From Phoronis australis (Eukaryota; Animalia; Phoronida): a stretch of DNA of 64,000 nt. Position numbers and translations under genes: made by a program. Location of the stretch: positions 244,186 to 308,185 of the forward strand of contig NMRA01000088.1 in NCBI GenBank assembly GCA_002633005.1, in the 5' to 3' direction. Of this stretch, positions 4,752 to 62,337 are shown in pieces (the stretch's first letter is position 1; each line of letters opens with the position of its first letter). Under the pieces are notes generated by a model that saw only the letters and a list, made by a program, of their open reading frames with translations, did no database searches and was not told the origin of the DNA.

Positions 4752-4800
4752 ATTTTATTTTTCTAAATAATGTTGGCACATGTTCATCGTCAAAGGGAAG
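4752..4800 (-). CDS. PRKAA: AMPK alpha exon 7
   Basis: LPFDDEHVPTLFRKIK; ttccag| ... |gtaagt; 49 nt. Confidence 0.96.
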
Positions 4801-5590: not shown

Positions 5591-5707
<117 letters not shown>

Positions 5708-7319: not shown

Positions 7320-7421
<102 letters not shown>

Positions 7422-8180: not shown

Positions 8181-8890
<710 letters not shown>

Positions 8891-10441
8891 ATTTTTGTGT
8901 TTTGTACGTTCTTGTTTCTTTTCATTCCATAATTACAGCATATGTGTGCATTTAGACCCACACACTTATATCCGAAGTAGTGCATTAATGAAGGACATTT
9001 TCTACATATTTTAAATTTTAAGAGCTTTGCATATAGGAGCAGGCAAATAAGCTTCACTGATACAGGTGACCTATCCTTTTGCATATTTGTGTTTATTCAG
9101 AAAAGTGGGCTTTTAAACGAAAAGTCATAGCTTTGCTGACTTTGACATTTTTTACTTAAAAGTGTTTTTAAACTTTATGTTAATAAATGCATAGTTCACA
9201 AACACCTTTTTTGTTTTTATAAATGATAAATGCACCACAAAAACTGAATTGGTGACAAAAAGTTGACCCTGGGTGGACTTTTAAGAGGACATTTTCCGAA
9301 CAAAAGCCCCAATATTTGGACACTTGACACCAGAAGTTGTACCACCAAATAAAATGCCCATGGGTGTTTATTGGGCATAATTTGCTGAATAAACGCCCAT
9401 GGGCATTTCATCGGGTGGGCTTATCTACAGAAAATCCCAGTAGCAGCAAAATCACAGCACTCTAGGTATTGTCAGGATATTGATGTACACGTAGACTAAT
9501 CATCTCATATAAGAAAAAAGAAGTTCAAAATAACATCTCACCACAAGACTAGGCAACTACGAATACCTGTGGTCTAGAACCGATCAATATGCAGGAATAC
9601 TACATTGACTGAGCCACGATAGGACACGACTGTGACAAGTTTGTTTTTCAACACAGACAGCATTCTGAATACAAAAAATAACCAATTCGTAACGGAGTAA
9701 GAATTGACCACCCCACGTTACAGACGGCCACGTAATACTTTTAAACATACTTTAGCAAGATGCTAAAGTATTTGCAAAAGTTTTGAATAAGAAACACTTA
9801 AATGTATTACTAAATGGCATACAAGTAGAAGCATAAACTGAATACAGGAAACAGTGACTTATGTAAGCGATGTTGCGTCCACTTCGCCAGGGATATACCT
9901 AAGCCTCAAACACATTGTTGCCATCAGGTTGATTAAGTACGAAAATCAAGACATCAAGCCAAAGTTAGGTTGCCCAATTCTTTATAGCGAGATTTTGAGG
10001 ACTCAAAAGCCCAGTTTTGCATTAGCACAGCTGAGTTGCTACCAAACGTTCATCAAAATTTGTATGTATACTGGGCAGATGTTGCTAGCTTTTGAGTTGG
10101 TCTTGCTAAAAGTGAGAATTCCTATCTAATCATACCAAACAAAATAATGCGCTTTTTGCCAGCAGAGAAATTCCTAGCAACGCAGTCGATACCGGCATCT
10201 CACACCTACAGAACTTCTAAAACCTGTCAGGGTTTCTGGATTCATATTGTGCTAGAGGGCAGATGCCATGTAACGGTATATGCAGATTATCTTTGATCTA
10301 AATTGAGTGAAATGATTAGGAAAGTCACTCAAATGCTGATGCTGTAATGGTAACTATATGTGTGTTCAAACGAGCCAATGTAGTTCTTTTATTGAAGTAC
10401 ATATGGTATGGTAAATTAGATTTGTTTATTGGGCAGGCCTG

Positions 10442-10842
<401 letters not shown>

Positions 10843-11152
10843 TTATACATATCTAAAGGAATGGAACTTTGTAGGCTTTATACTACTCCAAAATTTGCTC
10901 CAATGCTTACAGTTAGAAGAAAGTGGCGAATGCCATATTTGCTTTGCAAGAACGAACTAAAAAACGCTCAAGAGTTAGACATAGTTCATAGTTTTAGTTT
11001 GAAAATACACCGACTCTCAGTGTTTAGGAAACCATAAACACTTCTGGAAAGAAAAGCATGCAGACAGACCTATATTCAGAGAATATTCTATATACAACCT
11101 CGCGAGATAACAGGCATCAGGGTGGGCCTCTTTTCATTCAGAAATTGCCAGT

Positions 11153-31626: not shown

Positions 31627-32496
31627 AAAACCCTAAAGCTCTGGGGTGAGCCCAGAGCCCGTCAGCATCATAGACATCAAAGATGTCAATGCTCACCACC
31701 ACAAAACTTAACACGAGATGTCGCGCAAACTGTTTCATGATCGGTGATTGGTTGACTTTTGTCACATGGGGATTTGAACTTTGGCAGACTAACAGACAGA
31801 CGACGGTCGTGTAGAAGATTGTTCAACTTATGAGGTGATTTTATCGTGTACTTTATTGAATATTTGTGCAAATGCTTTATGATTATCACAAACCATATAA
31901 GAATGGTTAAATAAGCGCCTGATTACATTATAAATAATAATAAACGTTATTTTCTGTCGAGATGCTGTCTTCTTTCCCGTCTATCCATTTGCCGGGTTGA
32001 CATCCGCCCGACCGGTCTGTCATCCTTTTTCGCTTTAAGTTCGAGTAAAAAATGGATGATTCGGCTGCATTTGATTTTAGTGCAAAGCTTTTAATATGTA
32101 CCTAATCATATTTCCATCCGATTTTTCCTTTGTTCAGCTACTTAAAAGTTGTCCTTCGAAACAATGATGACTATTTTGAGAATTGTATGATTAGAAATCT
32201 GCCTGTGGTTGTTGATAAATTCAATTTGAAAATGAATGGGCAGGTTAGTAGCCACGTTGGTTTCTAGGGTTCATAAAATAGGACAATAGTTCACTTTGGG
32301 GTTATTGTTTTCAATGTGACTATTAACATTCTGTTTTCTGAATCCTCTCGTCATGGCGATTCCAAAAGTGTGGTACTCATGCCATCTCTCTCTTCTTATT
32401 CATGCATTCCAGTGTTGTTCTGAGGCTTTCATTTGCTAGTAAGATGATCTCGGCTGGCAGCCATTATAAGATTGCGAGTTCTCTGTGCAAGAATGA

Positions 32497-39190: not shown

Positions 39191-40914
39191 AAAACTAGCT
39201 TTTGAAAAATAAAAAAGACCAATTTTAGCAATTATTTTTGTCAGAAATTGGCCCATCGTCTGGTGAACACGTTGGAAGTTGTTCAAGTTGTGACGCTGTG
39301 GCAAAGCCTTTCTTTTCTTCATCCTAATTCCCGCCTTCACACTGAATGCTTTTGCAGAGGTAGAAAAGTACATTGTATGATTGAATTTATTTTTGAAACG
39401 TATGACCAGTAACGCACTTCTGAGCCAAGTCAGACGAGACGACAACTTTGATATAAATAGTGCAATTAGGGAAACTTACTTTAAGATTGCATTTCGCCCC
39501 CTTTAGCCCACACTTTAAACACATTTGGAGTTCTTAGCAGAAGTGTTGAAACTAACAGCTGCTGTTTGATGCACTCACGGCAAATGGTCCCTATTGTGTC
39601 ACATGATTGACGTAGAAGTCTATTCGCGTCATATGAAAAATTCAGGGTTGGCCAACCCCTACAAAATTGACGATTTTCCGATGCGTTTCTTGACCTGGAT
39701 TTGTACATTTTTCTTGGTAACGGATAAGTTCTATCATGGTAAAGGAAATTTCGAGACCATTTTTATTAGAGTAAGAGCTCCGATTTTATTTTCATTTTTC
39801 AGCCTTCTAAGCAGAGAGAAGTACAGCTTTAATATTAAATAATGATTAGCTTGGTTGCAGCATAGCCTTGTGGCATTCTGGGAAGTGGCTATTCTACAGT
39901 TATAAATGTATTTTCCTCTGTGGAGTGTGTTTTGTTTGATTGCTAGGATAATGGAAGATCCAAAATGGTTTGTTTCTCCAAAAAAATCAATCACCGTTGT
40001 CAGATATCATTATGGGGTGTAGTACGGCCTATGGTAATATGGCTGAAGCATGTGTTGTCAGGCTTGAGGCAGTGATATATTGTTCGATAATTACCCAAGC
40101 ACTGTTTTCATGGTGGTTTAGCCTTAAAGGTTCAACAAAAAGTATCTAGACCTAGTGTGCTAAGATCATCTATGTTTTCGCATTTTGCCGTGTCCGAAGA
40201 TTAAGAAAAAACAATGTCTAGGCAAACTACTGTTCTGTAATGAAGTAATTTTGAATTACTAAGGCAATGATCGGAGCGGAGTACACTAAAACGTCAGTTT
40301 GGTATTTGTCCTGTTTTCTGGTCGTTGACCTACTACGGATACTGTCATTCTGCTATGAACATCTATGATGTGCAGATTGCTCGTCTTTTTTCCTTTACGA
40401 ATAACATGGGTGTTCACCCAAACATCGTTATTTTCTCATGAAAATGTTGTTTCTTATCTATTGAACCACAGTTGTTTTTGCATGAACTACTGCTCTTGAA
40501 AAAAGAAATTTACTCATAAGAGAGAAATTGTCCTGAAAAAACTGACGCTGCCATTGCGGTTTCATTAATAAGGCTATTGATAATGACAACACTGCTAAAG
40601 CCCAATCTTAAACTAATATTAGTCTTCCTCTTGCATGACTGATCTTATAACATGTGTGCCACTCAAAAACATTTAGAATTTACAATCTGACAAAATTTGC
40701 GATATTTTTTCATGCGTACAAACTAAATGTTTTTGCACCAAAAATGAGTACGCCACGACAATGAAAAACAGCTAGCCGCCTATCAAGATTGAGGGTTGGG
40801 TGTAGGGGAAACGGACGGGTGGGGGGGAAACGGACAATTTAATGAGTCTTGTGCAGTTCACTGAAGATTTAAATCACATGTTGTCTATTTTGCCTTCAGA
40901 AACCGACATTAACT

Positions 40915-41035
40915 ATGGCAGTGAACGTGCATTCCACGAGTGCCACAGCGGAGACGCTCAGCCGGAACGAAATGCTAGCGTGGGTGAACAATTCTCTACA
41001 ATTACAGTACAGCAAAGTGGAACAGCTCTGCAGTG
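40915..41035 (+). CDS. MAPRE: EB1/MAPRE family microtubule end-binding protein, coding exon 1 (exon starts at 40900 after cttcag)
   Basis: [40 protein letters not shown](G), EB CH-domain N-terminus; donor G|gtaagg; 121 nt. Confidence 0.97.
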
Positions 41036-43920: not shown

Positions 43921-43959
43921 GTGCTGCGTACTGTCAGTTCGTGGACATGCTGTTTGACC
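43921..43959 (+). CDS. MAPRE: MAPRE coding exon 2
   Basis: GAAYCQFVDMLFD(H); tttttgcag| ... C|gtaggt; 39 nt. Confidence 0.94.
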
Positions 43960-45441
43960 GTAGGTGACAGAGGAGCATGTGGTGTAGAAACAATACAGTG
44001 ATTAGACCTGTATATACTCTGGCCAGGCAACTGCCTGCAATTAGATCCGGTGTGGTGCCTTATCTTTATTTAGTGCTGCCATTGGCATCAGAGCTTCATT
44101 TTTTAAGGTTGTCAAGACTGCAGTGGGATTCGATATGTAGCCGTAGTGTTCGAAGAGTCCAACTTCTGCGTTTAGATATTTGGCCAGAGTATTTACATGA
44201 CTGACCCCTGAGTTGTTTTGCTGTTTTGGCAGATTTGATTTCAATGATTGCTTTGCACACTGAAATTCTAAGTGATAGGTTTATAATTAGCTCATTTTCT
44301 CTTTCCAAAACGTGTCTTAAATGCCATTACACTAACAATATATGTTTATACACCCTTTTTTCTAGCAAGAAAGCAGGCAATTAAAATTTCTACTGTTCTA
44401 TATCCAGTCTTAAATAATGTAAGATCAAAATTCTTACTGGGTATGCGTAGTACTTTCTAATGGGCTGGTCAAGATTACACCTTTGTGAACACCAGTTCAA
44501 CAAGAGAAGCCTTCTGCTTAAGAAAAAGGTGTGCATGAGATATCAGTCACCAGAGGGAAAAGGGTGCCCATGCCTTCCGAGAGAGGAATTGTTTAATTGA
44601 GGAGAAAGTCCCTTTCTGTTCATCCCCATTTCCACCCCCGGATGCTGCCCCTCAAGTAGCCAAAACTAATGTTTTGCATAGTGCTAACTTTGAGAATTTT
44701 TCAGTCATTAAAGGGTTTTTTTGGCTTGATGATGCGAATTTCTGTTTTTAAATATTTTTCTGAGGGGGGCGTCAGTATAGATCTTAATTTTTGTTCGATG
44801 GCCTCAACAAAGAGTTGCAGGTCAGTGACACTGTATGCTCCTTGGGGGGGTTTGCTTTGGTGGAGACCTGGGACTCATCTAGGATTTGAAAAGTGGGGTC
44901 CAAATTGTTGAGATTGACTCTTGCCATATGCGGGGATTCCGCATGAGGTCATGGTTATGTCACGGGATGGGGACGCTTTCTCCCCGAAAACCATGGCTGC
45001 CAGTATTTTCTGATCATCAATGTGACATTTACAGTAAAAATAGACAGTGATAGTCTGATCTCAATTTATATCTGACTATTAATCTAAAACAACAAATTGC
45101 AGGTTTCAATAAAATTTATCAATCAGAAATGTTAAAATTCTTCGTTTCGCTGTTGTTTTCGTCGAGGTTGTCTTGAAATGGGCTATCTTTTTTGTCTCTG
45201 CCGTTCTGTCCGAGCCGTGACAGCAGCTAGATGAGTCCCAGGTAGAGTTCATATGTGGAAATCGGGTTGTATTTTAGTTTATCATCTGATAATCCAGTAA
45301 TCCAGCTGTAATTTCGTGTTTTTTCTGTTTGTGATGTGTACAGAAGAAAGTAAGTTCCTTCTTACTGATGTTTTTGTGTACACAGCAGGGGAATATGTTC
45401 ATGACTGTCACTTGCTCATTTATCGAACTTCTTTTCTTCAG

Positions 45442-45548
45442 ATGCAGTCCAGCTGAAAAGAGTCAAATTTGATGCCAAACTCGAGTTTGAGTACATCAAC
45501 AATTTCAAGCTGCTCCAAGCAGCGTTTAACAAGGTCGGCTGTGATAAG
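45442..45548 (+). CDS. MAPRE: MAPRE coding exon 3
   Basis: [35 protein letters not shown]; cttcag| ... |gtaggt; 107 nt. Confidence 0.95.
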
Positions 45549-46689
45549 GTAGGTGATGCCGTCGCTAGAATCTGGCAGTGTCAACCCGATGTTTTGGTGA
45601 CCTTTAAAAGTGTCTCAAAGTTGTATCTATGTATGCCTGTGTGAAGGATCGGGGGAAATTCGCGCGATCTTTTGGATTGCAAATCTGTCCTTAAATTTGC
45701 TGTTTACATAGTCTGCTACCAGGACGTTAACAGAGATGGGGAGCATTCCGTAGACCTTGTATCTTGCGAGAAAAGCAAGATTTTTGCAAAATCTTTCAAG
45801 TGTGCTCGGGAGCTTATTAGCTTGTCAGAGCAAACTGACAGTGAAGTGATTGGTCGGCAAGGTTGTAGTGTTTAAAGTTTTGTGTACCCTTATTTCACAA
45901 AAAAATACCATTAAAAACATCGGCGCTAACTGCACATGGTTTTTGAGCATTTCTATCGAAGTTTTAATACAGAAAAATTGGTGAATGCTGGTGAAAGGAC
46001 TTTTTCCCGATCAATGTATATTTCAAAAAATATTTTTGCCAAAAAGGCATGCTCACGTGACTATGAGAATAGTACAGTGTAACAGTTGTGAATGACAATT
46101 AAATTTGTCTCGATTCGCAGTTTCAGGAAATATACACTTTTATGAGTTGACAGTCGCTAGTTACTTAGATATTTCAAGAAGAAAAACATTTAATTAGGGG
46201 TACACATCACCTTACTTTATGGGATTGAATTTAGTTTTAGTGTTCCAAAAGGGAAGATTTATCGTTATGTGTTCAAGCTAATGTCTTACGGTCTTAAGGA
46301 ACTCAACCCTGTTCTCGCATTTGTACTTCTGGGTTTGCTTCTGCATGCTTCATGAAGTCATGGCACTTGGCAAAATTGCAAGTTTTTCGGGATGAAGTAG
46401 TCACCCTCCACCTGGTTGCCCAAGTGGCTGTAGAGATCATGGGGGTAACCTTGGTAGCAAGGAGCTATTTGTATTTGTAACAATCGTTAGACAAAGCTTT
46501 CAAAAAACTGCGGACAATCGGAACAATGTCGGAAGACCTTCAAAATTGAAAAAAGGCAATTTTTGGCCTTTATTTGTGAAGGAAATCGGCGATATGTTAC
46601 CATGGAACTTGCCACGCCACCTAGTAGCCAGTCTTATTGTTATTGTCGGTATCAGTGTTGGTGTAATGGAGTTGCTTTTCCGGGCACAG

Positions 46690-46909
46690 GTCATTCCCAT
46701 CGAGAAATTGGTGAAGGGAAGGTTCCAGGATAACTTTGAGTTCCTGCAGTGGTTCAAGAAGTTCTTCGATGCCAACTATGGGGGAGCTGAAGAGTACGAC
46801 GCACTGAGTAGGCGCGGTGGCGCGGCGGTGGGATCAGCCAAGCGCCCAGGGGCAGTGGGCAGGGGCAAACCAGCCGTGTCTAAGGCAGCTGCACCGAAGC
46901 CAAAGCCAG
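46690..46909 (+). CDS. MAPRE: MAPRE coding exon 4
   Basis: [32 protein letters not shown]... then basic Gly/Ala/Pro linker; cacag| ... |gtgagt; 220 nt. Confidence 0.97.
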
Positions 46910-47359
46910 GTGAGTGCATTATCGCCGCTGGTCGTTGCGACTGGCCTGCGGTCTGAATTTGATGAATGTGTAGTCAGTGGTTGTCTAGGAATGATGGAAA
47001 AGTACGTTTAAAATGGTTCATTGAACAATATTTCTCCTATTGCATACAGTTTCCTGAGGCTGTTTTGAAGTGGAGATGTAGTTACGTTATTTCTAAAATA
47101 TATTGCCAACTCGCTGAAATGGGGCTGTCAGAATTCCAAGATTGCTAAATGGGATACAAGGTTGCAAAATAGTTCTTTCCTATTGTATAGCATCACCTTG
47201 TGGATGTTAAATTGCAAAGTCCTAGGTTGCCCATTATTGTTGAGCAGGAGTTCATCCAGGATTTCTAAAATGGGAGGCTCAGTATGGGTTTCCCAGTTTC
47301 TGAGGACGTCTATGACCAATATTGTGTGTTCACATTTTTACAACCCCAAGTCAAACTGC

Positions 47360-47900
47360 AGTTGCATTTGGCGACCTGGCAAAGATCTGAGGTCGCCAAA
47401 TGAAATCTGATGTTGGCCAAAACGGAAAATCCCTGCTCAAAACAAAAGATGAGGTTGCCCACGAGGCATATAGATCAACGACTAGAAAAATGCACGGTTT
47501 TAACGCGGAAGTCACCCATTCCCTTGCGTGAACCTCTCCAATTTCTACCTGTAAATGTACATTCAATTTCTAATTTCCTTCCACGAACATAGAACGCAGA
47601 GGACCGCATCAACTGGTAGAGTGCGAATTTCACCGATCTTGCCCGATTTTTGCCGAATAATTCCAACTTCCGTCTCTTTACTTCATGTTGTAATTTAAGC
47701 ATGTTTGATGTGTTGGCAAATGCACTGATTTAACGAAATAAACGGTAGAACAATTTTGTATCAAAAGTATTTAATCTAGGAAAACTTTTAGTAATTTAAG
47801 ATTTGGAAGTTGGTACGAACTGTGAAACGAATAAAGAAGGAATTATTGTCGGACTTTGATACTCGCAGTGGCGACTTCGTGGCGACAAACGCAATCTGAT
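47360..47900 (+). mobile_element. Dispersed repeat homologous to 22050-22422
   Basis: Shared end segments; TGGCGAC/GTCGCCA subterminal-type motifs. Confidence 0.65.
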
Positions 47901-48062
47901 GTCACAAATCGAGCGCTTCCTGGTCTGCATTCTAAACAATGTTTCTGTTTGTTTACTTGAAGGATGGGCCATAATTTCCTTCTGGTTTTAACTGTTCACA
48001 CTGTAGTTTGTCACTCATTGTCCTAGTGTTTATTAAATCACTTTTCCCCCGTTCCACTTTAG

Positions 48063-48175
48063 CACCAGCTGCACCAGTCAGGAACATGTCTGCAGGTGGG
48101 GCTCAGCGCTCGGCAGGGGGCAAGTCAGCAGGTGATCCCGCCGCTGAACAGAAAATCACAGACTTAACCAAACAG
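48063..48175 (+). CDS. MAPRE: MAPRE coding exon 5 (linker, start of coiled coil)
   Basis: APAAPVRNMSAGGAQRSAGGKSAGDPAAEQKITDLTKQ; ctttag| ... |gtaggc; 113 nt, phase 1 to 0. Confidence 0.88.
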
Positions 48176-48957
48176 GTAGGCACAGGTCTCTACAAAATCT
48201 GTGCATTTAGTTGAATATCTGCAAGAACACATTAAGGGGATCACGCTGGGTAATTATGATTTATTTTCTGAAAGAAATCTTGTAAAAGAGAGTCCTTTCA
48301 CATTGTTTCAAGCGTGGACAGTTTGAGTGCACACTGCCCATCAGGTAAAGCCCCAGGTGAGGGTATAGCGAAAAAAACCCCGGTGCTTTTTGCAGTATCT
48401 CATGCTGCATTTCCCAGAGGGTAGCTGGTAAAGGACAGTGCACACGGTGCGATTTTACAGCACCGACATTGTAGCCTATAAGAAATGGCATTGGGTGGGC
48501 TAGTTTATGACTGAATTGTATTGTGTGTGCTGGGTCAATGATACGGCAGTTTGGCCAATAAAAAACACGAGGCCTCCTGACAAAAGATTGTGTTTTGTGC
48601 ACTGGCCTTCAAGCCCCAGATCCATATAAGCATGGATGAACATGGCAGTGCTGAATCCCAGTGGATCAAGATCCAGGATACCTTTTTTGCCGTGAATTTA
48701 CCTTTCAGGCTTTTTACTTTCAGAAAATATATGTATTTTTATGGAGTCACTTGCTATATTTTTGTTGATGTTCGGCTCACTGCACTTGTTGATAAGGTAC
48801 CACTTAACCTAAACTAAACTGTGGGTTGTGCAAACACCGTGAATGTGATCTTAGGGCAAAACGTGCTCTAACCATAAAATGTCAAGTTTTGCTCAATTCG
48901 GTATTGAGGTTGTGTTCCCGCTGCCCCTTTTTATAACTCGCCCTTTCTCTTCATCAG

Positions 48958-49110
48958 GTCGACGAACTAGATTTGACAATCGAGGGTCTGGAGAGAGAGC
49001 GCGACTTCTACTTCGGCAAGCTCCGTGAAATTGAGGTGCTGTGTCAGCAGGAAGAGCTGGAGCAGCAGCCGGTGTTACAGAAAATACTCGATATATTGTA
49101 TCAAACAGAA
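48958..49110 (+). CDS. MAPRE: MAPRE coding exon 6 (EBH domain)
   Basis: VDELDLTIEGLERERDFYFGKLREIEVLCQQEELEQQPVLQKILDILYQTE; catcag| ... |gtgagt; 153 nt. Confidence 0.97.
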
Positions 49111-50741
49111 GTGAGTTAGAGGGTCTATGGGGGTGGGGTATGTGGGAGGGATGCAAGGGTTGGGGGGGGGGGATTGAATAGCTGTTAAAATCAGGAGTTT
49201 GGACAGACTACTTACTTTAATTCGATGCTCGACTCTAAAATTGACTAGTGACGTTGTGCGATGCACGATTGTTGTGTTTTCGATTGGGGTTGTTTGGTGG
49301 CCTTCCTTCTTGGTTCCGCACAAGGCAATTAGTAAAGGGCTAGACCATGACATAGGGCCAAGTCTCCAAACTCAAGCACGAGTCTTAACCAATCGCACTG
49401 CATGATTCGGGTAAACACGCAGATATGTACTCGAATTATGCACGGTGCCATGCCATTAGTAGTCGCGTATCAAGGCCAAATGTTAGACCCTGGTCCAGAC
49501 CTGTGTACCGTACGCAAAAATGCGGATTTAGACTGTAATTTAGCTTGTGGTATGCAAATACACAAGACCAGGCAAAAATACGCACATTGGAAGCAGATTA
49601 TTTACTGAGATGTCACTCACTGATAAGCTAGCAATAGAAATTAGGAATTAAAAAAGAATATATATTCATATTAGTTTAATGCGAGCTGCAAAGTGGAACA
49701 CTTGCTCCAGTTCATTCTAAATATAGTAAGATAATCAATAAATCATAAGGCTTCTATCAATATTCATCATCACCGGCCTAAACTATAAGCAACGACTTCT
49801 GTGAATGGTGCGTTGTTTACTTTGTTTAATTCTGGCTATCTCCGCCTAAATACATACTGTTGTCAAAATGGCAAAGCATGGGAGGGACTGCATGTTCCGA
49901 GCTGTGAAGAGAATAGCTTCTGAAAGAAGGGAACATCTGTTTTTGCCCCGTTATTTGGAAGAATGGCAGTGTGTTGTGAATGGTTGAGAACATGTCATCT
50001 CGTGTAAAACATTTTTCAGTGCAGATTCATGAGCACTGTCTTTGCAGATACGTTTTTGTTTAGGAACGAGTATAACGTTTGAAGCAAGGAACTCCTTGTT
50101 GTGTGTCATTTCACAATTCACGCTAAATTACCGTTGCGGCGTGAATCTACATAGTTATGTAACTTCAGGAAGGAACCTTTCTATCGATTAACTGGATCTT
50201 TTCACTACTGCAAGTGCAGTTCACCAACTAAACACTTTAGAGAATTATGAAAATTGGCCGTCAAATCACCACGTGTATCAAACTGTTCCAAAGGTAAGAA
50301 ACTGGGAAAAGTACCAACTAAATACAGTTTCATTACGCTAACATGGTGAAAAGTTTGAATTTTCTATGTTTGGTCTGTACGCAAAAATCTGCAAATTTAC
50401 TGAAAAATATAGATATCTGGTGTCCAAAATATTCGATGCTGTTTCGATGGTACACAGGTCTGCTGTTCCCACAGGTTGTAAGTGCCTACCATCTGTTTAC
50501 GTTGGTTACGATTCCACAGGTGACATTTAGATAAAACTGAAGTTTTCAGCCCTACACCAGCTCAATATGGGTAAAGGTTTGCTGTCAATGACACAACAAA
50601 CACAAAGGCTTACCTCCAAACAGACAGAAACAACACTGCTACCAAGGATTTTGACCACAGATAATTTTTTTTTTTATGTCTATAGTGAGCCCCATCCATT
50701 CATTCTTTGCATACTGTGAGCTTAGGTTGTGTTGGAAGACT

Positions 50742-50973
50742 CAGGGCTTGGAATTTTCCGCTCTTAAGAGGATTCCCCTTTTTTTCCTCTTATTTGATTT
50801 CCAGTTTCCTCTTTTTCGTCTCTTTTTATTATGACTTTATTCATGCAAAAAGGTGTATTTCAGTTAAATTTTACAACAAAAAGTATTTCTGTCGCACAAG
50901 CCTATTTATTTGTGGAACTATACACCACCTGGAAAATTTTCCTCTTTTTTGTCATAGGTCATTCCAAGCCCTG
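50742..50973. mobile_element. Short hAT-like MITE, same family as 6454-6974, opposite orientation
   Basis: CAGGGCTTGGAATTTTCC ... GGTCATTCCAAGCCCTG; flanks aagact/taaact (degenerate 6-bp TSD). Confidence 0.85.
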
Positions 50974-52215
50974 TAAACTGTTAGCAAAGTACTCAGAATA
51001 GATTTTTTGTGTGCACGAATGTCTGTCACAAGTGTGCCAGATGGTCCTACGCACAAGCACAAAATATCTTTACCTCCAGGTGTTTTTATTCATTTCTGGG
51101 ATGATTTTGTTGGAAATTTTATTTGCTATAGTAAATGTAAAAAGACCACTGCGTGTACCATTGATTTATCGTTACAAACTTTTCGAGTCATAGTTATGAA
51201 TCACATTCTACTTTGATGAAATATAGAAATGATAATCAATACTCATGGAGATGACTTCAGCTTGCCAATGAATGTGCGGTTTGTACGTACGTTTCAACAG
51301 TTCACGGGGATGACTCTATGCTGTGCTTCCTTGAGTCTGTCATAGTCAGCATGCATTCAGTCTGATGCCAGGTTCTGACACCTATCCTTTTGGACAGTTG
51401 ACGAGTTATTAGGTAGTCGCTGTTGTCTAAAGCTGGGCATATCGCTTCACTCGCACGTGGCTGTCGTGTCTTGGCTCAGATTTAGATCATGTGATACAAG
51501 ACTGCATGGGATTGCACATGTCCAGACATTTAGTAGACTGAACGTGAAAGTGGCCGTTTTAACGCCTAAAACTACAGTTTAGGTTTCCTTTCCATCAAAC
51601 TGTTTTGTTAGTGTTAATATCGGGGCTTCCTTGAATGAATCTGACATTGTGGATTATTGAGTATTGTGTAAAGGGCGATAAGTTTTTAAAAGTACTAGGA
51701 CACTGACTAAACGTTTCCTCTTGTTTGCGTCATTCTAATTATGTGGCTGTTTCTTGACTAAATCCTGTTTCCCCACCTGCTGTGACTTGTGAATGCTGAG
51801 CACAAATATTGGGACTCCCAACAGGCCTGTCCACCTGGCAGAGCGAAAACGGAAATGTTTTTCCCCAGACAGCCTTTTCTGGTATGAACCTTGCTGTAAT
51901 GCTTAATGCAAAGAACTTTCGATGCTTTCCCTTGAATGCACTGTTTGTGTTCATTAATTCCTGTTTACCAATGATCAGACCTGGATCCAAGATGGCGACT
52001 GTGACGGCCATTTTTGGTGCCCAAAAATAAAGTCTTCTAAGTGTTAATTTAACAAACTTTATTCAAACCTGGCACTGATATTGTTTGCTGTTTTGTGTGT
52101 CGGTGTGCGAAGTTGATTTCTGCGAAGTTCACTGCTCCTGGGGTTTTAGCATTGCTCGCACTCTCGTTTGTCGTGACCGGGTGTTAACCAATCATGTGTG
52201 ACCTTGGTGTTTTAG

Positions 52216-52275
52216 GAGGGCTTTGAGGCGACGCAAGGTGTAGACGAAGACGGACAGGAGGCGGACGAGTATTGA
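52216..52275 (+). CDS. MAPRE: MAPRE alternative terminal exon 7a (acidic tail ending DEY)
   Basis: gtgttttag|GAG GGC TTT ... GAC GAG TAT TGA = EGFEATQGVDEDGQEADEY*; phase 0, in frame with exon 6. Confidence 0.88.
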   Translation, partial: EGFEATQGVDEDGQEADEY

Positions 52276-53561
52276 ACAGGTGCTGAACTCGTCTAACTAC
52301 CCCTACCACCTTTGTCAGTCCAACACCTGCTGTATCCAAACTTATCATATATGCATCTATTTAGCCCATGCACGTGTATCCGAAATAAGTCGTTTTTTTC
52401 TGAGAATTTTTTAGTCTTTTGTTACACATTTAAGCACATGCACCTAAGCTTCATTTGTGCAGGCTGCTATCCTTTGTAATCGTGCATGTCTTAAACTTTG
52501 TTTTTCTTGCATTTTGTCTATTCTTAGCTCTTTTATTCAGGTGCATTTAACCCGCACCTTTATCAAGAACTTTCTACTCAAGTTTTACTCGGGTGTCATA
52601 AATGCAGGCACATGCGCCTAGTTCCTTACTTGACATATAGGTGCACAGGCCTAAATATTTGCATATATGGTATCCTTGGTCCTAGTTAGCTCTCCAGCGA
52701 GTGCTAAATGAATGCCGTGGAATTAACTTCCTCTCATTTAACTTAAGAACTCTTCGTTAGATGGGGTTCTAGATAGCAATTAATTGTTCCACCAAATACT
52801 AAACAAATGACGTATAATTGACCCTCTCTATTAACACAAGAGGACGTAGTCAGATACTAACGGAATGCTTCAACGTGTAAGGCTCCTTAGTGTTTCATCG
52901 GTGAATACCTTGATCGGGCACTCGCTGTTTGTTGGTTCTGGCGTACTCGGTGTGGTCTCGTTCGAAGTCGTGTTTTTGGATTACCGCTTACGGACTCATC
53001 ACGTTACCGGTCGCATTCTGACCTAACTTGATCTTCTTCCCTCTTTCTTCTTCATTGTCTTAGTTAACCTTCCTGCTTTGTGTTGATCTAGCACATCTCT
53101 GGAAACAGGATGAGTTTTAACGTCTAACTTGCCATGCTCTGCAAGCTAATGTTTCCAATGTTGCATGTTGCACTCTCCTCTCTGAACGCCTCTCCTTATA
53201 CTTTTCTGCCTGCCTCTACCACAGGATTGCTGTTCACGTCACTGCACCCTGGTACAAGCTGTAAGAAACATGCAGGTTTAGTTGCCTGGATTTGGTTCAC
53301 ATTGATTAATGGTTTTGCTGTCTACATTCTGATGCTCGCTTGCCCCTGTCCTTGAATTCACTTGCTTGTCCTCTTTCTGCTGTAAAGCATTGTTATTGCC
53401 TGCTGAAACTATTATTGTACTGGTAGCTGTACAATTGTGATCACTAATGTCAGTGTTGGTTGCTAGACCTTACAAAAGCTTCTGATAGTATTAAGCGGTT
53501 GGGAAAAAATAGTGTCGGGTTTCATTGCGTGTGTCTTTGTACAATGTTCCTATGACACTAT

Positions 53562-53567
53562 AATAAA
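53562..53567 (+). terminator. Candidate poly(A) signal for the exon 7a isoform
   Basis: AATAAA about 1.3 kb after the 7a stop and upstream of the 7b acceptor. Confidence 0.4.
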
Positions 53568-55735
53568 AGACGGTAGTATAGTGACTAGTGCTTCGACTGA
53601 TTTCAGGTATATAATGGAATGGATTATCTTGACTGGGCTTAAGTTAGGTGGAAATCTAATCACAAAGCTTTAAATTACATAGTAGTTAGTCATTAGAAAT
53701 TGATCTATTGGGCAACTTTAACGGGTTGGCAAAGGGCTGAAAAAATGTCACCAACTTGCTATTTTTGGGACCTATGCAAACATATTTGGTGCAATATACT
53801 AGTTTCTCTAGTGGACAAGTCGGTAATTGTAAGTGGCAAAATTCCTGAAATTTGGACACAGAAATTATATATTTCTAAAATTTAAGAGATTTTTGTCATG
53901 AATTTGATAAAAATCAAGACTTGTTAGTCTTGAATAAGTCAAAATTTAAAGTTGAATTTGGCCCTGTTTATCTGGTTAAGAAAATAAAAATCAAATTAAG
54001 CCTTTTTTCTCATAAAATCTGAGGGAAGGACCAAAATCGATTTTTGTTTTCAGCCAGCTAAATTGAGCAAAATGCAGCTTTCGATAAATAACATTGATTT
54101 CAAAATTAAAAATGTTATCAGAGGAAGTAATGCCTGCCCATTGTGTTGAATATTTCTACGACCAGTTTCTCTGCCCAACACTGGAGATTGTACTTAAGGA
54201 ATCCCTACACCATGTATAGTGTTGTCAAGGAGATGTTCTTGTAGCCGCAAAAGCATAGATTTAACCGTTTTATGACACTGCCCCAAGATTTAATTTTGTT
54301 CACTGGAATCGTTTATTTACAAACTTTAGCAGTGTATCTTTGTTTTAATGCTCTTATCGTGCATGTGGTTTTTTGTGTTGTATTCACACAACACTTTTGA
54401 CATGGTGTAAACTGACACTGATCAGCTTGTCGGCAGTTTTCAGAGTGGAACAAGTTGCTTACATTCGTCTTGTTCGTGCACGACTAAACACAATGTGGTG
54501 TCGAGGCATAAGCGATTGAGTATTAGCGTACATACCAGTAGTCATTGTAAACCAGAGAAGTTGCACAATGACTTCTTGTTTGTGAGTTTGTTTTGTCCCA
54601 ATTTCCAAGGATGCCATGAAGTGGATCAACTTGCACCATGTCAATATGTTCTATGTAAATCTAGTTTTGGAGACCAGTTGATAGACACAAGTCTTAATTC
54701 AGTCTGCTATAAAATCATCTTCTGTCAAAAAACAAACTTGATTGAGGTTTCTTATCCTCATACAACTGGGCTGCATTCCATAGTCATGAAAACATTAGGT
54801 TGCGTTTGCACTGAAAAATCTTTGTGAATGGAAGGTAAACAGTGATTTCAATCCCACAATGCAACATTCCAACCTCGCCGACCAACTTTGCTTTATGCAC
54901 TCTTCTCCAAAATGCTGCTAACAATCGTTTTTTAAATATTCCACTTCTGCGTGATGTAGTATAAAAATAGGACTACGATTTTAGGGTTTGCCTGAAGTGT
55001 ATTCTTGATTTGCGGACTGTTTCGATGTTCTTGTTAAGGTATATCACGAGACCCAATTCATGAGAGCAAAAGGTCGAATTCGATTTTTGTTTTTAGCCAT
55101 CTAAGCCGGGCTGGGCTTAACAACATGTTTTGTAAAAAAAATGCATTTGAACAAAACTGATTACAGAAAATTACAATCTGCCATGGTCCAGCCAATGTAA
55201 AATACATTTGTACTCACCCCATGCTGCTTGTAGTGGGGAAAGGCAATTCTGCATGTCTCTGAATGTTCTGTTAATGGGCACATATGGTGTGCTCTTTCCT
55301 CTCCTTTTTCTTCTGTTAAGCATGGTTCAGGTAAAACAAGGAGGCATTGCTGGCTAAATGGCTCCATTCAGGAGGTTGACATGGGTGACGTTATTGTCAG
55401 AACCGACATTGGACGATTCCCACGAAGAGAATGAAAAGTTGAAATTTGTTGGGTGATGCCAATGAAAGGGCAGTACACCTGCGTAAATGATTGTGTGGTT
55501 TGGGTGGTCACGTGGAACTATCGTGCCAAGAATGCCTCTTATCTCGTAAAAGGTCTATTCAGTTTTGCACTTGATAATCTCAACAGCATTGCTGCAAGTT
55601 TAAGTTTAAACTTGAGCTTGTGGTATGAATCTAGGGATTATCTGGTTAGGATTGAGCTATATGCCTACCTGTGTAAACCATAATGTAATCCAGATGCACT
55701 ACCAAGGCTACATACCTGCAGTTCATAACGTAAAG

Positions 55736-55898
55736 TGTGGTAAATTCTCTCCAATTTAGGACAGAGTATGGCACACAGGCCTGTAGCATAGCCACCATTA
55801 GACAATGGGGGCACTCATAACAATGTTAGATGCCCATGAAAATGAATAAGCGCAATTTCGGCAATTAATTTTTCCGAAATTGGCGAGATTTTACCGTA
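55736..55898. mobile_element. MITE of the TACGGTAAAATCTCGCC family, ~125 bp upstream of exon 7b
   Basis: tgtggtaaattctctccaatttagg ... ccgaaattggcgagattttaccgta inverted pair. Confidence 0.65.
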
Positions 55899-56022
55899 GT
55901 GACGCAAAAGATATCAACTATGAGTTGAGAGTTAGGAGATTGGATTTCAGACCTAATTGAATATCTAGTCCTGCATTGCGAGTTCCGTCTATCGCATGTA
56001 ATTCTTTGCGTGCTCGTTTCAG

Positions 56023-56082
56023 GAGGGGTTTGCACCACCTGACGACGCAGCGGAGTTAGAGGAAGAGGTGGAGGAGTATTGA
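56023..56082 (+). CDS. MAPRE: MAPRE alternative terminal exon 7b (canonical EGFAPP...EEY tail)
   Basis: ctcgtttcag|GAG GGG TTT ... GAG GAG TAT TGA = EGFAPPDDAAELEEEVEEY*; phase 0, in frame with exon 6. Confidence 0.92.
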   Translation, partial: EGFAPPDDAAELEEEVEEY

Positions 56083-58380
56083 CGATGGACTAGTTGTGAC
56101 ACGTGATGGATGAATGTGTCTGTATTGAATGCTGTCGCCACCTATTGTGTATATTGTACTCTAAGAAAAACTGCTGAGAGCAAGAGGGGACAGCCTAGTG
56201 TTACACAGCAGTGAACGCTGAAGAGGATTAGTGGCTGACATTGGCAGTGTGCAAGTTGCAGGTTGTTCCGTGAGCGACGTCAGTCTCTTTTTTTTCAATA
56301 ATTGCAAAAAAGTTCACGCAAGGGCATTTGATTTATGGGTTGGGATTTTGCACTTTGATTTATTTTGGGTGATGTCTTGGGTCGGTGTCAGATGTCATTC
56401 ATTGACATTTGTGATTTGCTGTTCAGTCGGCAGTTTTCAGCGGTGGTTCTTAATAATTTTACTCATTCACTGTTACTGCAGACGTTGGATAAAATGTTTA
56501 AACTTTTTATTCATTTTGAATTCATTAAGAATGGCGCGGTTGGTGAAGTTAAGGGCAAGTTTCGGAAATGATTCGCCTTCGATACTTCATTTGGTGCGAG
56601 GTTTTTATGTTGGGTTTATTTAACCAACTGGGATAGTCGTGGACGTTTCACGACATTTCTGCTTCTCAACTGTTTTCTGCTTTGCAATGGAATGTAGGGA
56701 GGAATTCAAGTATTTTATATTAGTCCCGGGCGTGTGCATAATCCTGCTTCCTATACGTAGTTGAGATGCCGTTGTTAACTGCTCTTTGTATATGAGGCGA
56801 TAACAGATCTAGTGTAGGGCTTTAGTCTGGAGCAGTATCAGGAATCTAGCTCTCCCGTGTTTTCTCGACAGTCAGTAGTGTAGAAAATCCAAAATAACTT
56901 TATTTCAAGCCCCATGCAGCGCCACCTGTTGGTTGATGTTATGGAGTGTAACCTTTAATTTTTGTTCTCTAATATTTCTAGATAGTAGTCCTACTTACAC
57001 CAGGGATCAAATGAAGTGGGAAGCTCAACTGTTGCTAACTGACTTTTTTGAGTTTGATTTTTGCATTTTGTACTTGTCTTAATTAGCGCTGGTTGGGTCT
57101 GTGATTATACACTGGTCTCCCTTCATTATTTGGCTCTCAGTACGGTTGCATACATCGCCCGTGTGTATGAACTAGTTAACCCCATCGCTTTATAACTGTT
57201 TGGAGAGAAAACTAAATTAATGAAGTTGCAATAGGAGTGCGTGCCCACAAGCTAATAACTGAGTTGCTAAATGTGAAATAAAATTTTTTTGCTATATGAT
57301 ATGTCATAAAAGTTTCCATGCAATCATTGGTAATATATTTCACCTCCAAACAGTTCACCCAGACGGTGAGCAATTAAAAACGAGTTTCAGAATGGATCAC
57401 TTTCGAAGGCACCGGCCAGCAGTCCAGATGTAGGCATAGCTGCGGTAATTTTTCACATATTTAGGACAAACTGGAAGAGAAGTGAATTTTTTGTTAAAAT
57501 TTTCAGCAATTTTGTTCCATTATTTTGCTGGAGTCACATGTCAACATTTGGTAAAGATTTTGTAGTGTGTTATGTAAACTGGTCTCTTGAAAAATAGAAA
57601 AAATACCAATTTTGATTGTTGTTATTGTACGAAGCAAGTGAAGAATTGTCGAAGGTGTCTTAAATTTCTAGCATACGCGAGTGGAACCGTGCCTGACGGA
57701 GTGCCAACTTGTTTCCATCGTCACCACACTAGCGGTTCGTAGTTTAGTTTAGGCTTCTTGTACAGTTTTGTCATTTCTATTGTACAGTGTTGTGCGACTC
57801 CTGTTCTTGATCCAATGTTTGTAAAGATGCGTGTACAGTAAGTGAGGGGTTTAGAAGCCTTGTGGATAAAGGTCGGTGGCAGAGCTCGTAAATACTCTGG
57901 CCAAGACTCTTAGTTGAATGGTCAAAAACACTATGATTGGTGACCACATGCAGGTGCTGCCACCTCTAGCAGAGTATTTTTGAGCAATGTCACTGGATTG
58001 TTTCTCCATCCTGGCTCATGTTAACTCTGCCTAGTGCTGATTAGAAATCCATGTGAGGTTTGCAGTGTCTCATAAACTTGACTTGTCAGTTTAGAATTGA
58101 ACCTTGTTTAACTGGTGGGAAATCGTTAGTCTTTCGTAATCTTTATTTATACTTATTTCGTGAAATTTCGAATGCAGTTTGTCCTCCAAAGTTTTCATTT
58201 GCTCATTACTGTCATAGAACTTTGTTGCATTAAAGTCTAGGATACAGTCACAAACTACCGTGGACCCTCAAACCTAAGTGGGACCTCTATTCGTAATAAG
58301 GATGATTCATGTATGCTAGCCCTCGGCTTTCCTCCGAATTCGCAAAATGCTGTTACTAAATTATTTAATCTTTTATTTGA

Positions 58381-58440
58381 AATAAAATGCATTGTGTATG
58401 ACTAAATGAGCCTTTTTGTTGTGTTGTGATGTGATGTGGG
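58381..58440 (+). terminator. Candidate poly(A) signal for the exon 7b isoform
   Basis: AATAAA at 58381 followed by GT-rich ttttgttgtgttgtgatgtgatgtg; another AATAAA near 57277. Confidence 0.5.
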
Positions 58441-58699
58441 TGGTGAACACTTTCACAGTGTGAATAGGGCACAGAGATATCCACTTGCAAGTTCCTAGTA
58501 TGTTTCCTGTTTAAAGGTATATTGAGCACAACATGGTGGTTGGGTCAAAGTTAAATAAAATACGAACCAAGTTTATTACGCTAAAATTAATACCCTTGTT
58601 AGCTTCGTTTTGATGTCAGTGTAACATGAAGTGCACAATTGCATTGTATCATAACTCATTTTTATGCGGTCACATATTTATGTGTGGATGCATGTTGTC

Positions 58700-59400
58700 T
58701 TCTGTCTGGCGTCTGCTGCTGTGTCTTCGAAACCGTTGCAGGATCTTATTAAAATTTGGCAGGTGTGATCTTATGAAGCTGACGTCTGTAGACCACAAGT
58801 TTAGTATCGATTCAACGAGCGATGTGGCCCCTAGGAGCAATTTTAGTTTTTTATGGTTGTATCTGTATCTTCGGAGATCATTAATGGATTTTCGTGAAAT
58901 TTGGCAAATTTTTTTTATTATAAAAGATGATGGTGCTATTCCATTTTTCGGACAGGTTTGATGGTTTTACGCTATTTTTGTTATATTAGCGTCCATTTTA
59001 TGGCGTCTGCCTCTCTACCCGGTGAACTGTTCAAGGAATCATTATGAAAATTTACAGATGTGTTTTTGATGAAAAGGCCACGACTGATGTTGACTTTCAA
59101 ACTGTCTGACTACTTAGTCACACACTTGTGGCAATTTTTCTTTTTTTGTGTTTTTGTGTTTGTAGCCAAATCTCCATAACCCTTTGAATGAGCTTTGTGA
59201 AATTTGAAAAATTCTTTCCTGTGGAGCCAACATCAAATAGTTACTAGCGTCAAACTGATCCGAGCACCACTGAGCCGGGTAAGCCCCCTAGTGGTGAGAT
59301 TTTTTTCTTTACGTTTGCGTCTATCTTTAGAGTTCATTATATAAAATTTGGCAAATAGATTTCTGTTAAGGAGATGACAACGGCTTACCATTTCATCCCT
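58700..59400. repeat. Highly degenerate ~148-bp tandem array (about 5 units)
   Basis: aaattt(ggca) core at 58752, 58897, 59048, 59200 and 59344. Confidence 0.55.
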
Positions 59401-62337
59401 TTGCATTGCTCTTGTTTGTGACCTGTCACAAACTTAGTCAAAAAACAATCTTCTTTTTGTCTCGTCAATCTGGGTATCCGCAGGTAATACCGGAAATTTC
59501 TGAAAGTGCCCCTAGTGTGTGCTTGTGTGCGTGCATGTTTGTAATTTGGCAAAAAGGAAGGTTTATAGTGGCTTTAAATGAAATTCATTCAACCACAAAA
59601 CACTGGGTTATACTCCACTATGGTAACTCCACCTAGTGTTTGTGCAGGAAACAAAATATTCAACTTTCCTGTGTTATGGTGCTGCATGCAACCTATCGGC
59701 TAGATTCAGTCCTTGCGCTAACTGAGCTCACTTGTATGTATTTGTGATACTGTTTAAAAGTTTGGCCATTTATTGAAGGCGACAGTTAATGGGTGTCTGT
59801 AACTACTGGACATTTAATATACAGATTTGAAAATTGTATCATATGTAAGGATGCTTTAAGGATGTGAAATGTCTTAAAGCTACTGTCTTAATAGTACAGT
59901 CATGGGATTGGGACACTCATTATGTAGGGTGAAAGGTAATGGTTCCACAATGTTTGTAAAAAGGACATTTTCTTTGTAAAAGTATCAATCCGTACTGTAC
60001 CAGGCATTGTTCTCTTTCAGAATGTCCCACATGAAAATCGTTTTTTCAGTTATGGAAATTAAAGAATTTTTTTTTTGACTTTTTGTTTTAAACTACTTGC
60101 AATTGTGAGACTGGCCTTGACTTGTTCCTTAGTCAAATTAGGTTTGAATTCTTAGGAAACTCCAGTCTCCACAAGTTGACTTGTTTGGCTGTGGCACTTC
60201 ATGTACGCGACATAGTGTTGAGCGAAAATGAACTACCACCATTATGTTTTTAAACCCAGAAACTAATTTTCATCTGAAAAGGGAAAAATTGATACCAGTT
60301 TAATTTTTTTTTTGGTTTATTGCAGGTTATTTAATTATTTAATTATTGATAGTTGTTTCAAAAATAAAATTTCACCCACTGACTGTTAAAGCTAGTGTAC
60401 TGAAAACAGAGGTGGTTGCTGGCTCGGTTCAAACAGCAAAAGTTGTTCAGACGAATATACAGCATTGCGTGTTAAAAAGTTCGGCGAAACTTCAGGCAGA
60501 CTGTGCCTGTGGCAATGTGGTTGAGATAGGCGATATGTTTTTTATCCAAGACAGGCTGTCAGCCATTTTGGACTAGTTACTTAAGCTTTTGTGAACAATT
60601 TGTGCAATGTGAGAGCAGACATGGTTATAAACAATTAGATAACTTTAGTTAAGTTTTGCCTTAGGTAGTTGTGGTCTAATGCCTTCTTGTCTGGGTAGTA
60701 ATTGAATTTTTTATGGTCGCTTTTTTAAAAGGGACTATAAAATACAAATGAGACATTTTTTGGTTTGAATTGATCAGTTTGTTTCAAAATTTATAATATT
60801 CATGCACTGTCTTTTTGAAATTTTCATTTGAAATACATCTTTTATATGTCCAAGCAAGTCTGTGCTTACAAACCATGATTTTCAATTTTCATGGATTTAT
60901 TCAAAAAGATTTTAAATTGTTTCTTGATGTTCCTACAATTTCAAAATAAGTTTTTGCAAGGAAATTTGTCAGCTTACATTGCACATTTATTCGACTTTAA
61001 TCGACAGTGAACAGATTTTATTTCGACTAAAAATATCTGAATATGCCATGACCTTTTTTTTAACTAAATTTTTAGCAAAATGCAGATTTTTAAAAAATGT
61101 TGAAAAAGCTACAACTAGCATGGAGTTACATAGCTTTAGTAGTGGTTAAAAAAATATTTTCAGTGTTAAAATTCTTGTGAGAACTTTAAAGCATTACAAA
61201 AGCTCCTATGCAGGAGGGTATTTCTGAAACCAGTCAATGAACTTGACCTCCACAGCCTGGTTACTTAGTAGGTTTAGCATAACAATTGCATTTTTTTACA
61301 ACTGAATCGCGATGTACCAAAGAAGCGTACTGTGATCTATGTTTACCTTTCATTACTTTTATTGATTTGTCTCCAGTGAGAGTATTTTTTCCAATGACGG
61401 AGCAAATTATGCAGTGTAAGACACCTAGTACATAGTACAAACTGTAATCTTTAATTAGCCATTTCCTTGTTATGAGCATGTGTAGCTTGAGTAAGGAATT
61501 TGTCAGCTGAAATGGATCAGTGGTTTGCACAGTGTGTATGTGGCGAATTTCCTGTGAATGCGTCATTCTACTTATGTTCGTCTAGTCAACTAAGCCGCTT
61601 CAGATTGGCTAATTTTTTACGTCTGTCAGTAGTTTTTCAAGTAGGGCGCATAAAGAAATCTTATAATGACAACGATGTGCCATTGCCTGGGTTAACAAAT
61701 AGCAGTTAGTTGTACACTAAATTATTTCTTCCTCGTTTATTTGAAACAAATGGCATTTGTTGTGGCATAAAATGTGTGCACCTTTCTTAACTCGACCTGC
61801 ACATTTTTGTTTGTATAATTGACGTGAAGAGTGACACACTGTACATATGTGGAAAGTGCCCTGTGATTATTCAAAACTTTAAAAGCCCCACGCAGCACCT
61901 TCTTGAAAAACATAGTTTTGGTTCATGTTTTGCTGTGGAAGCTGTTGCTTTTTTATTAACATGGTGAGTTAACACTCTTGCAGATGATGAAACCAATGGA
62001 CAGACTGTTGTTCAGTGATTTGATGCCAAGTTCATTTGTCATCCTGTTTGAAGGTCTTTGTAAGTTTGACTTGGCCTATTTGTGACTGCATGAGTTATCT
62101 CCCTTTTCGCTGTAGTGCTGAACACCATTGGGATACCTGGATAGGGTTCCGTAACGCTAGGACCTCGCTAAAATGCAAAACTGCGAGATTACGCGAGATA
62201 TTGGCATGTATTTTAAATGAGAAGATGTGATTTGGGGTAAATTTTTCTAGCCGCGAGAAAGCTACTGAACTCTACCTGATGTTTTCAGCACCTCAATCGA
62301 GACGGGTGCAGGTAATCACTGAATGGCAGCTCCCTTT

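What the first reader, a model, noticed from the sequence alone, without database searches (positions are those of the whole stretch)
52216..56082. EB1/MAPRE has two duplicated, mutually exclusive last exons encoding different partner-binding tails
Seen: two exons 3.8 kb apart, both exactly 60 coding nt, both phase 0 behind good acceptors. Both start GAG GGN TTT G and end GAG TAT TGA, but the middles are diverged: EGFEATQGVDEDGQEADEY vs EGFAPPDDAAELEEEVEEY. Both keep 8-9 acidic residues and the terminal Tyr, which argues for selection on both. Known: the EB tail holds the EGF-hydrophobic-Pro segment that folds over SxIP ligands, and the C-terminal EEY/F motif bound by CAP-Gly proteins (CLIP-170, p150Glued); vertebrates vary this tail through the paralogs EB1/2/3. 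Inference: this animal makes two EB proteins with the same microtubule-binding half but different +TIP recruitment. 7a lacks the Ala-Pro-Pro after EGF and ends DEY. Isoform heterodimers would be possible. I do not know of a description of this arrangement but cannot exclude one.
Basis: partly seen in the sequence, partly recalled or inferred. Interest (0 to 1): 0.85.

Follow-up and report, generated by a model that had tools for sequence, protein, structure and literature searches.

The report
EB1 gene with switchable duplicated tail
This animal's EB1 gene, whose protein marks growing microtubule tips, includes or skips a small duplicated exon that carries its own stop codon, so its RNAs code for two different tail ends that likely differ in how tightly they hold partner proteins; cells use the same splicing trick in KRAS, but we found no report of it for EB1.

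Summary
The two look-alike exons are real and both are used, but they are not mutually exclusive last exons. RNA reads from three runs show exon 6 joined to 7a (18/24/61 reads) and to 7b (25/14/9). They also show 7a joined to 7b (10/15/45) through a donor 4 nt after 7a's stop. So 7a is a 64-nt cassette exon with its own stop. When included it supplies the tail and turns 7b into 3'UTR; when skipped, 7b supplies the tail. Both mRNAs share one ~2.3-kb 3'UTR and both encode 270-aa proteins. Inclusion ranges from about 36% to 85% between samples. A stop so near the last junction should escape nonsense-mediated decay. This is the KRAS 4A/4B and integrin alpha6A/B layout. 7b is the ancestral-type tail (F-A-P-P, as in human EB3). 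7a keeps the anchoring Phe, the acidic run and the terminal Tyr, but lacks the Pro found in 203 of 204 sampled tails. It likely locks SxIP partners more weakly while still binding CAP-Gly proteins; this is untested. The DEY ending is ordinary. No close relative was available, so conservation is unknown. Verdict: a real, apparently undescribed EB member of a known splicing class.

The parts
31803..31834 (+). 3' part of the non-coding first exon (its start was not determined), donor GT at 31835
   Evidence: 65 reads of X1 carry a loose end in front of 40898 that matches 31806-31827 exactly, 0 expected by chance; sequence
40900..41035 (+). coding exon 1 (ATG at 40915), start of the CH domain
   Evidence: junction to 43921 in 48/35/50 reads; tblastn 73% to EB proteins
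43921..43959 (+). coding exon 2 (39 nt)
   Evidence: junctions on both sides
45442..45548 (+). coding exon 3 (107 nt), CH domain
   Evidence: junctions 43/35/40 and 45/48/34 reads
46690..46909 (+). coding exon 4, end of CH domain and linker
   Evidence: junctions; homology
48063..48175 (+). coding exon 5, linker and start of coiled coil
   Evidence: junctions 28/37/22 and 39/30/24 reads
48958..49110 (+). coding exon 6, EBH domain; its donor is joined to 7a or 7b
   Evidence: Pfam PF03271 EB1, 66.6 bits against a cut-off of 27; junctions
52216..52279 (+). exon 7a: 64-nt cassette, 19 codons + TGA + 4 nt; derived tail (F-E-A-T, ends DEY)
   Evidence: upstream junction 18/24/61 reads, downstream junction to 56023 10/15/45 reads; translation
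   Evidence: joint skipping 3743 nt with GT..AG ends; 6 of 9 consensus matches
56023..56082 (+). exon 7b coding part: ancestral-type tail (F-A-P-P, ends EEY); 3'UTR when 7a is included
   Evidence: skip junction 25/14/9 reads; same EGFAPP start as human EB3
56083..58400 (+). shared 3'UTR, end near 58350-58410
   Evidence: sense depth 36-72 up to the bin ending 58627, then 2-3; molecule ends pile at 58352; AATAAA at 58381

Best explanation
Exon 7a is a duplicated copy of the EB1 tail exon that is spliced in or skipped, and because it carries its own stop codon the gene's RNAs encode two 270-residue EB proteins differing only in the last 19 residues, which likely differ in how tightly they lock SxIP-type partners. 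Shown: with 7a included the mRNA runs exon 6 - 7a - 7b, translation would stop inside 7a, and 7b is untranslated; with 7a skipped, 7b gives the tail; both forms share the 3'UTR; the ratio differs between samples. Inferred: the stop sits 4 nt before the last junction, inside the 50-55 nt zone that does not trigger junction-dependent decay, so the 7a form is stable and translated. Inferred: 7b is ancestral and 7a derived. Inferred: 7a keeps the Phe that anchors the folding tail but replaces the following hydrophobic and Pro residues with Glu-Ala-Thr, which would weaken the 'lock' step of SxIP binding, while its acidic run and terminal Tyr should keep CAP-Gly binding and lattice repulsion. Mixed dimers are expected where both forms are made, since the dimerising region is identical.
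For: All three junctions appear in 3 of 3 raw-read runs, all on the sense orientation, GT..AG, from 8-41 distinct read starts. Inclusion from both junctions is 0.36, 0.58 and 0.85; chi-square on upstream versus skip counts p = 2.5e-6. Sense depth at 52652-53979 is 0-0.45 against 36-72 behind 7b. The depth of the bin that holds 7a is accounted for by the exon itself: 23/33/65 against 18/24/61 junction reads. The stop is 4 nt from the junction and the 3'UTRs are 2334 versus 2270 nt; the 50-55 nt rule is stated in the abstract of PMC1854916. Pro at tail position 6 occurs in 203 of 204 canonical tails and in 53 of 60 parsed tails of a diverse set. The F-V-I-P segment folds over the ligand and adds about 20-fold affinity (PMC12695022 passages). 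Random substitution of 7b keeps the frame, both ends and at least 8 acidic residues in 0.4% of trials at 12 changes and 0 of 200000 at 24 changes, the observed difference.
Against: No protein or binding data. Glu after the Phe is natural elsewhere (15 of 60 parsed tails; an ascidian and a sponge EB), so only the Pro loss is unusual. The cited paper tested deletion of the whole segment, not the Pro alone; Pro256 is not mentioned. 7a-to-7b junction reads are fewer than exon 6-to-7a reads (70 versus 103), and only coarse 664-nt depth bins were available, so some read-through after 7a is not excluded. The contig run X4 showed none of the three tail junctions. The three samples come from one study, tissue and stage are unknown, and they differ from the window by many SNPs, so the ratio could reflect genotype. 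No relative with 7a was found; the nearest protein is 61% identical. The simulation ignores indels and was set up after seeing the data.
Confidence: 0.75

Rival explanations
1. The splicing is as described, but the two tails do the same job. 7a is a tolerated duplicate, constrained only because it is translated and has to stay acidic and end in Tyr.
For: The middle of the tail is variable across species. F-E and DEY both occur naturally. The flexible C-terminus adapts to different sequences (PMC12695022). No conservation data.
Against: Loss of a Pro present in 203 of 204 canonical tails, and a large sample-dependent swing in inclusion.
Confidence: 0.3
2. 7a is a poison exon: its stop triggers decay and so sets the amount of EB protein rather than making a second protein.
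For: Stop-bearing cassette exons are the classic poison exons (10.1101/464404 passages). A junction lies downstream of the stop.
Against: The stop is only 4 nt from the junction. The included form reaches about 85% of steady-state reads in X3. The 3'UTR is only 64 nt longer. The peptide keeps EB-tail features at both ends, which a poison exon would not need.
Confidence: 0.07
3. 7a and 7b are true alternative last exons, chosen by alternative polyadenylation.
For: AATAAA at 53562 and 53983. Fewer downstream than upstream 7a junction reads.
Against: A 7a-to-7b junction in 3 of 3 raw-read runs, near-background depth over 52652-53979, and the only molecule-end pile-up at 58352.
Confidence: 0.05

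Closest known systems
Human KRAS 4A/4B
   Same: Homologous duplicated 3' coding exons (PMC8373072 passage). The upstream copy is a cassette with a stop at its 3' end and is spliced onto the downstream copy, which is then untranslated; the paper says explicitly that they are not mutually exclusive in the mRNA (PMC5945503 passage).
   Different: Different protein family. The KRAS tails carry membrane-targeting signals (recalled). The cassette is 124 nt against 64 nt here.
Integrin alpha6A/alpha6B (ITGA6 exon 25)
   Same: A 130-nt cassette containing the stop; skipping gives a second cytoplasmic tail that shares only a short motif; inclusion is regulated by a splicing factor (PMC5930856 passages).
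   Different: The tails differ by 18 residues in length there and are equal in length here. No regulator was identified here.
Tandem duplicated exon C-terminal substitutions (77 of 236 human events)
   Same: Homologous alternative C-termini from a duplicated last coding exon (PMC9741552, PMC8373072 passages).
   Different: Those papers ascribe C-terminal swaps mostly to alternative poly(A). MAPRE does not occur in their main texts; their supplements were not read.
Vertebrate EB1/EB2/EB3 paralogs
   Same: Tail variation in the same segment: EB1 F-V-I-P, EB3 F-A-P-P; EB2 has no GF-x-x-P motif but ends EEY and binds partners more weakly (PMC4834103 passage).
   Different: Separate genes there, one gene here. 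7a keeps G-F, unlike EB2.
Annotated arthropod EB isoforms varying at the same junction
   Same: Database models show alternative sequence after the same exon boundary: short alternative tails in three vespid wasps and a mantis shrimp, and in-frame inserts of about 20 residues in decapods.
   Different: None is a homologous duplicate with G-F and a terminal Tyr. They are annotations that were not checked here.

Membership tests
EB1/MAPRE family | C-terminal EBH domain | tested here: met
   PF03271 66.6 bits, cut-off 27; PDB EB1/EB3 hits at E about 1e-17
EB1/MAPRE family | N-terminal EB-type CH domain | tested here: met
   exons match EB CH regions by tblastn and alignment; 3 of 3 single CH exons scanned alone gave no Pfam hit
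EB1/MAPRE family | acidic tail ending in an aromatic residue | tested here: met
   both tails: 8 and 9 acidic residues, terminal Tyr
EB1/MAPRE family | plus-end tracking and SxIP/CAP-Gly binding | not testable with these tools
   needs experiments
Mutually exclusive / alternative last exons | the two exons never occur in one mRNA | tested here: not met
   52279-to-56023 junction, 10/15/45 reads
Mutually exclusive / alternative last exons | upstream exon has its own 3'UTR and poly(A) site | tested here: not met
   depth 0-0.45 over 52652-53979; a minor use is not excluded
KRAS4A/4B-type duplicated stop cassette | two homologous tail exons in tandem | tested here: met
   36 of 60 nt, same length, phase and ends; 19.8 and 21.9 bits against 5.1 for the next best
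KRAS4A/4B-type duplicated stop cassette | upstream copy holds a stop and is spliced to the downstream copy, or skipped | tested here: met
   three junctions in 3 of 3 raw-read runs
KRAS4A/4B-type duplicated stop cassette | stop close enough to the last junction to avoid decay | tested here: met
   4 nt; decay itself was not measured
KRAS4A/4B-type duplicated stop cassette | both proteins made, with distinct functions | not testable with these tools
   no proteomics or assays
Poison exon (AS-NMD) | stop more than 50-55 nt upstream of the last junction and a depleted included form | tested here: not met
   4 nt; inclusion up to 0.85

The most novel reading that the evidence does not exclude
One invertebrate EB gene reproduces by a tissue-regulated splice switch what vertebrates do with three paralogs. 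The 7a tail uncouples the two partner systems of the microtubule tip, keeping CAP-Gly binding while loosening the SxIP lock, and mixed dimers carry one strong and one weak pocket.
Probability: 0.3. Interest if true: 0.7.

Novelty: new member of a known kind. Interest (0 to 1): 0.47.

Why it matters
The last 19 residues of EB hold both partner-binding elements of the microtubule plus-end hub. A natural pair that is identical elsewhere and changes only the folding 'lock' segment is a ready-made test of the dock-and-lock model of SxIP binding and of whether cells tune tip composition by splicing. It also adds EB to the genes that use a KRAS4A/4B-type stop cassette, a layout that annotation can mistake for a poison exon or for alternative last exons. 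The splicing mechanism itself is known.

Tried and rejected
No whole genome is held for this window, so other EB paralogs and relatives' loci were not examined. The run search listed no indexed RNA holder; the three raw-read runs came by species label. Three homologue searches and one representative search found no close relative (best 61% over the core), so the lineage was not identified and dN/dS could not be computed. In 20 multi-member clusters (30 proteins looked up, 10 singletons) none showed two homologous G-F...Tyr tails from one gene. The repeat search over 49100-58500 gave no convincing competing RNA pairing near either exon, and the duplication did not extend into the flanks (only an 18-nt match at the exon ends). 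Rfam found 0 matches in 40000-64000. tblastn with 260 homologues found no second copy of any CH exon here. The Atlas gave no result for the exon queried. No complex prediction was run, because the two isoforms are not contiguous in the window. Earlier-findings look-ups by EB words, place and sequence gave nothing. DEY versus EEY was rejected as the functional difference.

Full report
Observation. The two stretches are at 52216-52275 and 56023-56082, each 19 codons plus TGA in phase 0 behind an AG. They share 36 of 60 nt and 7 of 19 residues and have 8 and 9 acidic residues. Scored on the first three and last four positions of 123 distinct EB tails, they rank first and second (21.9 and 19.8 bits) of 2569 AG-started peptides on both strands, and the third scores 5.1. 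No other copy follows exon 6. The gene is an EB1/MAPRE gene: six coding exons give a 753-nt core, exon 6 matches Pfam PF03271 above its cut-off, and the best PDB matches are human EB1 and EB3.

RNA evidence. Four runs with the same species label were laid on 40700-60600: three raw-read RNA runs (18-19% of each read) and one small contig set. All upstream introns were confirmed. From the exon 6 donor, 18, 24 and 61 reads go to 52216 and 25, 14 and 9 go to 56023. All are in the sense orientation. The contig run showed none of the three. The table listed 15 joints and left 16 weaker ones unshown. Sense depth is 0-0.45 over 52652-53979 and 36-72 behind 7b, and molecule ends pile up only at 58352. 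After removing a repeat, the bin that holds 7a contains depth equal to 23, 33 and 65 reads over the 64-nt exon, close to the junction counts, which leaves little room for read-through (a rough estimate from 664-nt bins). So 7a is an internal 64-nt cassette with its own stop, and 7b is the single last exon.

Regulation. Inclusion is 0.42, 0.63 and 0.87 from the upstream junction and 0.36, 0.58 and 0.85 from both junctions; the samples differ (p about 1e-6). Tissue, stage and genotype are unknown and the three samples belong to one study, so regulation is likely but not separated from allelic effects. Both 7a splice sites are on the weak side: 10 of 17 pyrimidines at the acceptor, tied lowest of 8, and a GTGCTG donor with 6 of 9 consensus matches, tied lowest of 8. 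CTAAC occurs 4 times in the 1 kb after 7a against a mean of 0.58. That is one of 81 motif-region counts, and its reading as a STAR/Quaking-type site is recalled, so it is a lead only.

Why the included form should be translated. The stop ends 4 nt before the last junction and the 3'UTRs are 2334 and 2270 nt. Stops within 50-55 nt of the last junction are not recognised by decay (PMC1854916, abstract start in the listing). The included form is the majority in two samples. A null model of random substitutions in 7b keeps the open frame, both ends and at least 8 acidic residues in 3.2%, 0.4%, 0.01% and 0% of 200000 trials at 8, 12, 18 and 24 changes (24 are observed). This argues for constraint on the 7a peptide, though the model ignores indels and how changes split between the copies.

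What differs between the tails. Of 260 homologues held, 232 had a parsable EBH end and 204 began with the canonical [ED][GN]F. Of these, 203 have Pro at position 6 and none has an acidic residue at position 4; the set is redundant and rich in arthropods. In 146 more diverse representatives, 93 parsed and 60 had the motif; 53 have the Pro and 15 have Glu after the Phe, including an ascidian and a sponge protein. So 7b is the ancestral type, starting EGFAPP like human EB3, and the unusual feature of 7a is loss of the Pro, not the Glu. DEY is common (19 of 91; turtle EB3). In human EB1 the F-V-I-P segment folds over the residues after SxIP, is anchored by the Phe, and adds about 20-fold affinity (PMC12695022, passages). 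CAP-Gly domains bind the terminal EEY/F, and the acidic tail repels the lattice (PMC4834103, passages). The inference is that 7a keeps CAP-Gly binding and charge but locks SxIP ligands more weakly. That paper deleted the whole segment and notes that the tail is adaptable, so the size of the effect is open; I put a real binding difference at a little better than even.

Comparison with known systems. KRAS exons 4A and 4B are homologous (PMC8373072, passages), and 4A is a cassette whose stop leaves 4B untranslated in the same mRNA (PMC5945503, passages). ITGA6 exon 25 works likewise (PMC5930856, passages). Duplicated C-terminal swaps are 77 of 236 human events (PMC9741552, passages). MAPRE is absent from the main texts of PMC9741552, PMC8373072 and PMC9013439; their supplements were not read. 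Poison exons are described in 10.1101/464404 (passages). In EB genes, database models show other variation at this junction in wasps, a mantis shrimp and decapods, but no duplicated G-F...Tyr tail in 20 multi-member clusters. Duplicated CH exons occur in insects, a snail and a tubeworm. Six literature searches aimed at EB tail splicing (listings of 20 of 54, 20 of 28, 17 of 18, 1 of 2, 6 of 8 and 12 of 39 papers) showed no title or abstract describing it. The library lacks most subscription journals, so this is not proof of absence. An earlier, unchecked AI note reports the same layout for arthropod Ars2.

Limits and verdict. No genome or close relative was available, so the lineage, other paralogs and the age of 7a are unknown. 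It is a new member of a known kind, interest 0.47.

Noticed in passing
window 31830-31834 joined to 40900-40912: A five-codon upstream ORF spans the first splice junction and stops 2 nt before the main ATG at 40915.
   Followed up: partly
window 46909: The last base of coding exon 4 reads A in all three RNA runs (28/37/22 reads) but G in the window; probably an allele or an assembly difference at a donor position.
   Followed up: no
window about 990-10850, minus strand: An AMPK alpha-subunit gene (kinase and autoinhibitory-domain hits), oriented head-to-head with the EB gene; its 5' end was not mapped.
   Followed up: partly
window 52280-53279: CTAAC x4, GCAC x10, CTCT x14 and TGCATG x2 downstream of 7a; possible splicing-regulator sites, uncorrected for 81 counts.
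   Followed up: partly
window about 50760-50980, 51990, 54850: Short interspersed repeat pieces in the introns that attract many partly matching reads.
   Followed up: no
proteins P0152, P0449, P0444, P0454, P0023, P0016, P0062, P0443: Annotated arthropod EB isoforms vary at the same exon boundary: short tails without the terminal Tyr in vespid wasps and a mantis shrimp, in-frame inserts in decapods and a potter wasp. This intron looks like a recurrent site of tail variation.
   Followed up: partly
proteins P0063-P0120, P0130/P0240, P0177: Many insect and crustacean EB models carry a tandem duplicate of the exon ending the CH domain. Pomacea isoforms and a Lamellibrachia model show a duplicate of the preceding CH exon. 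This window has neither.
   Followed up: partly
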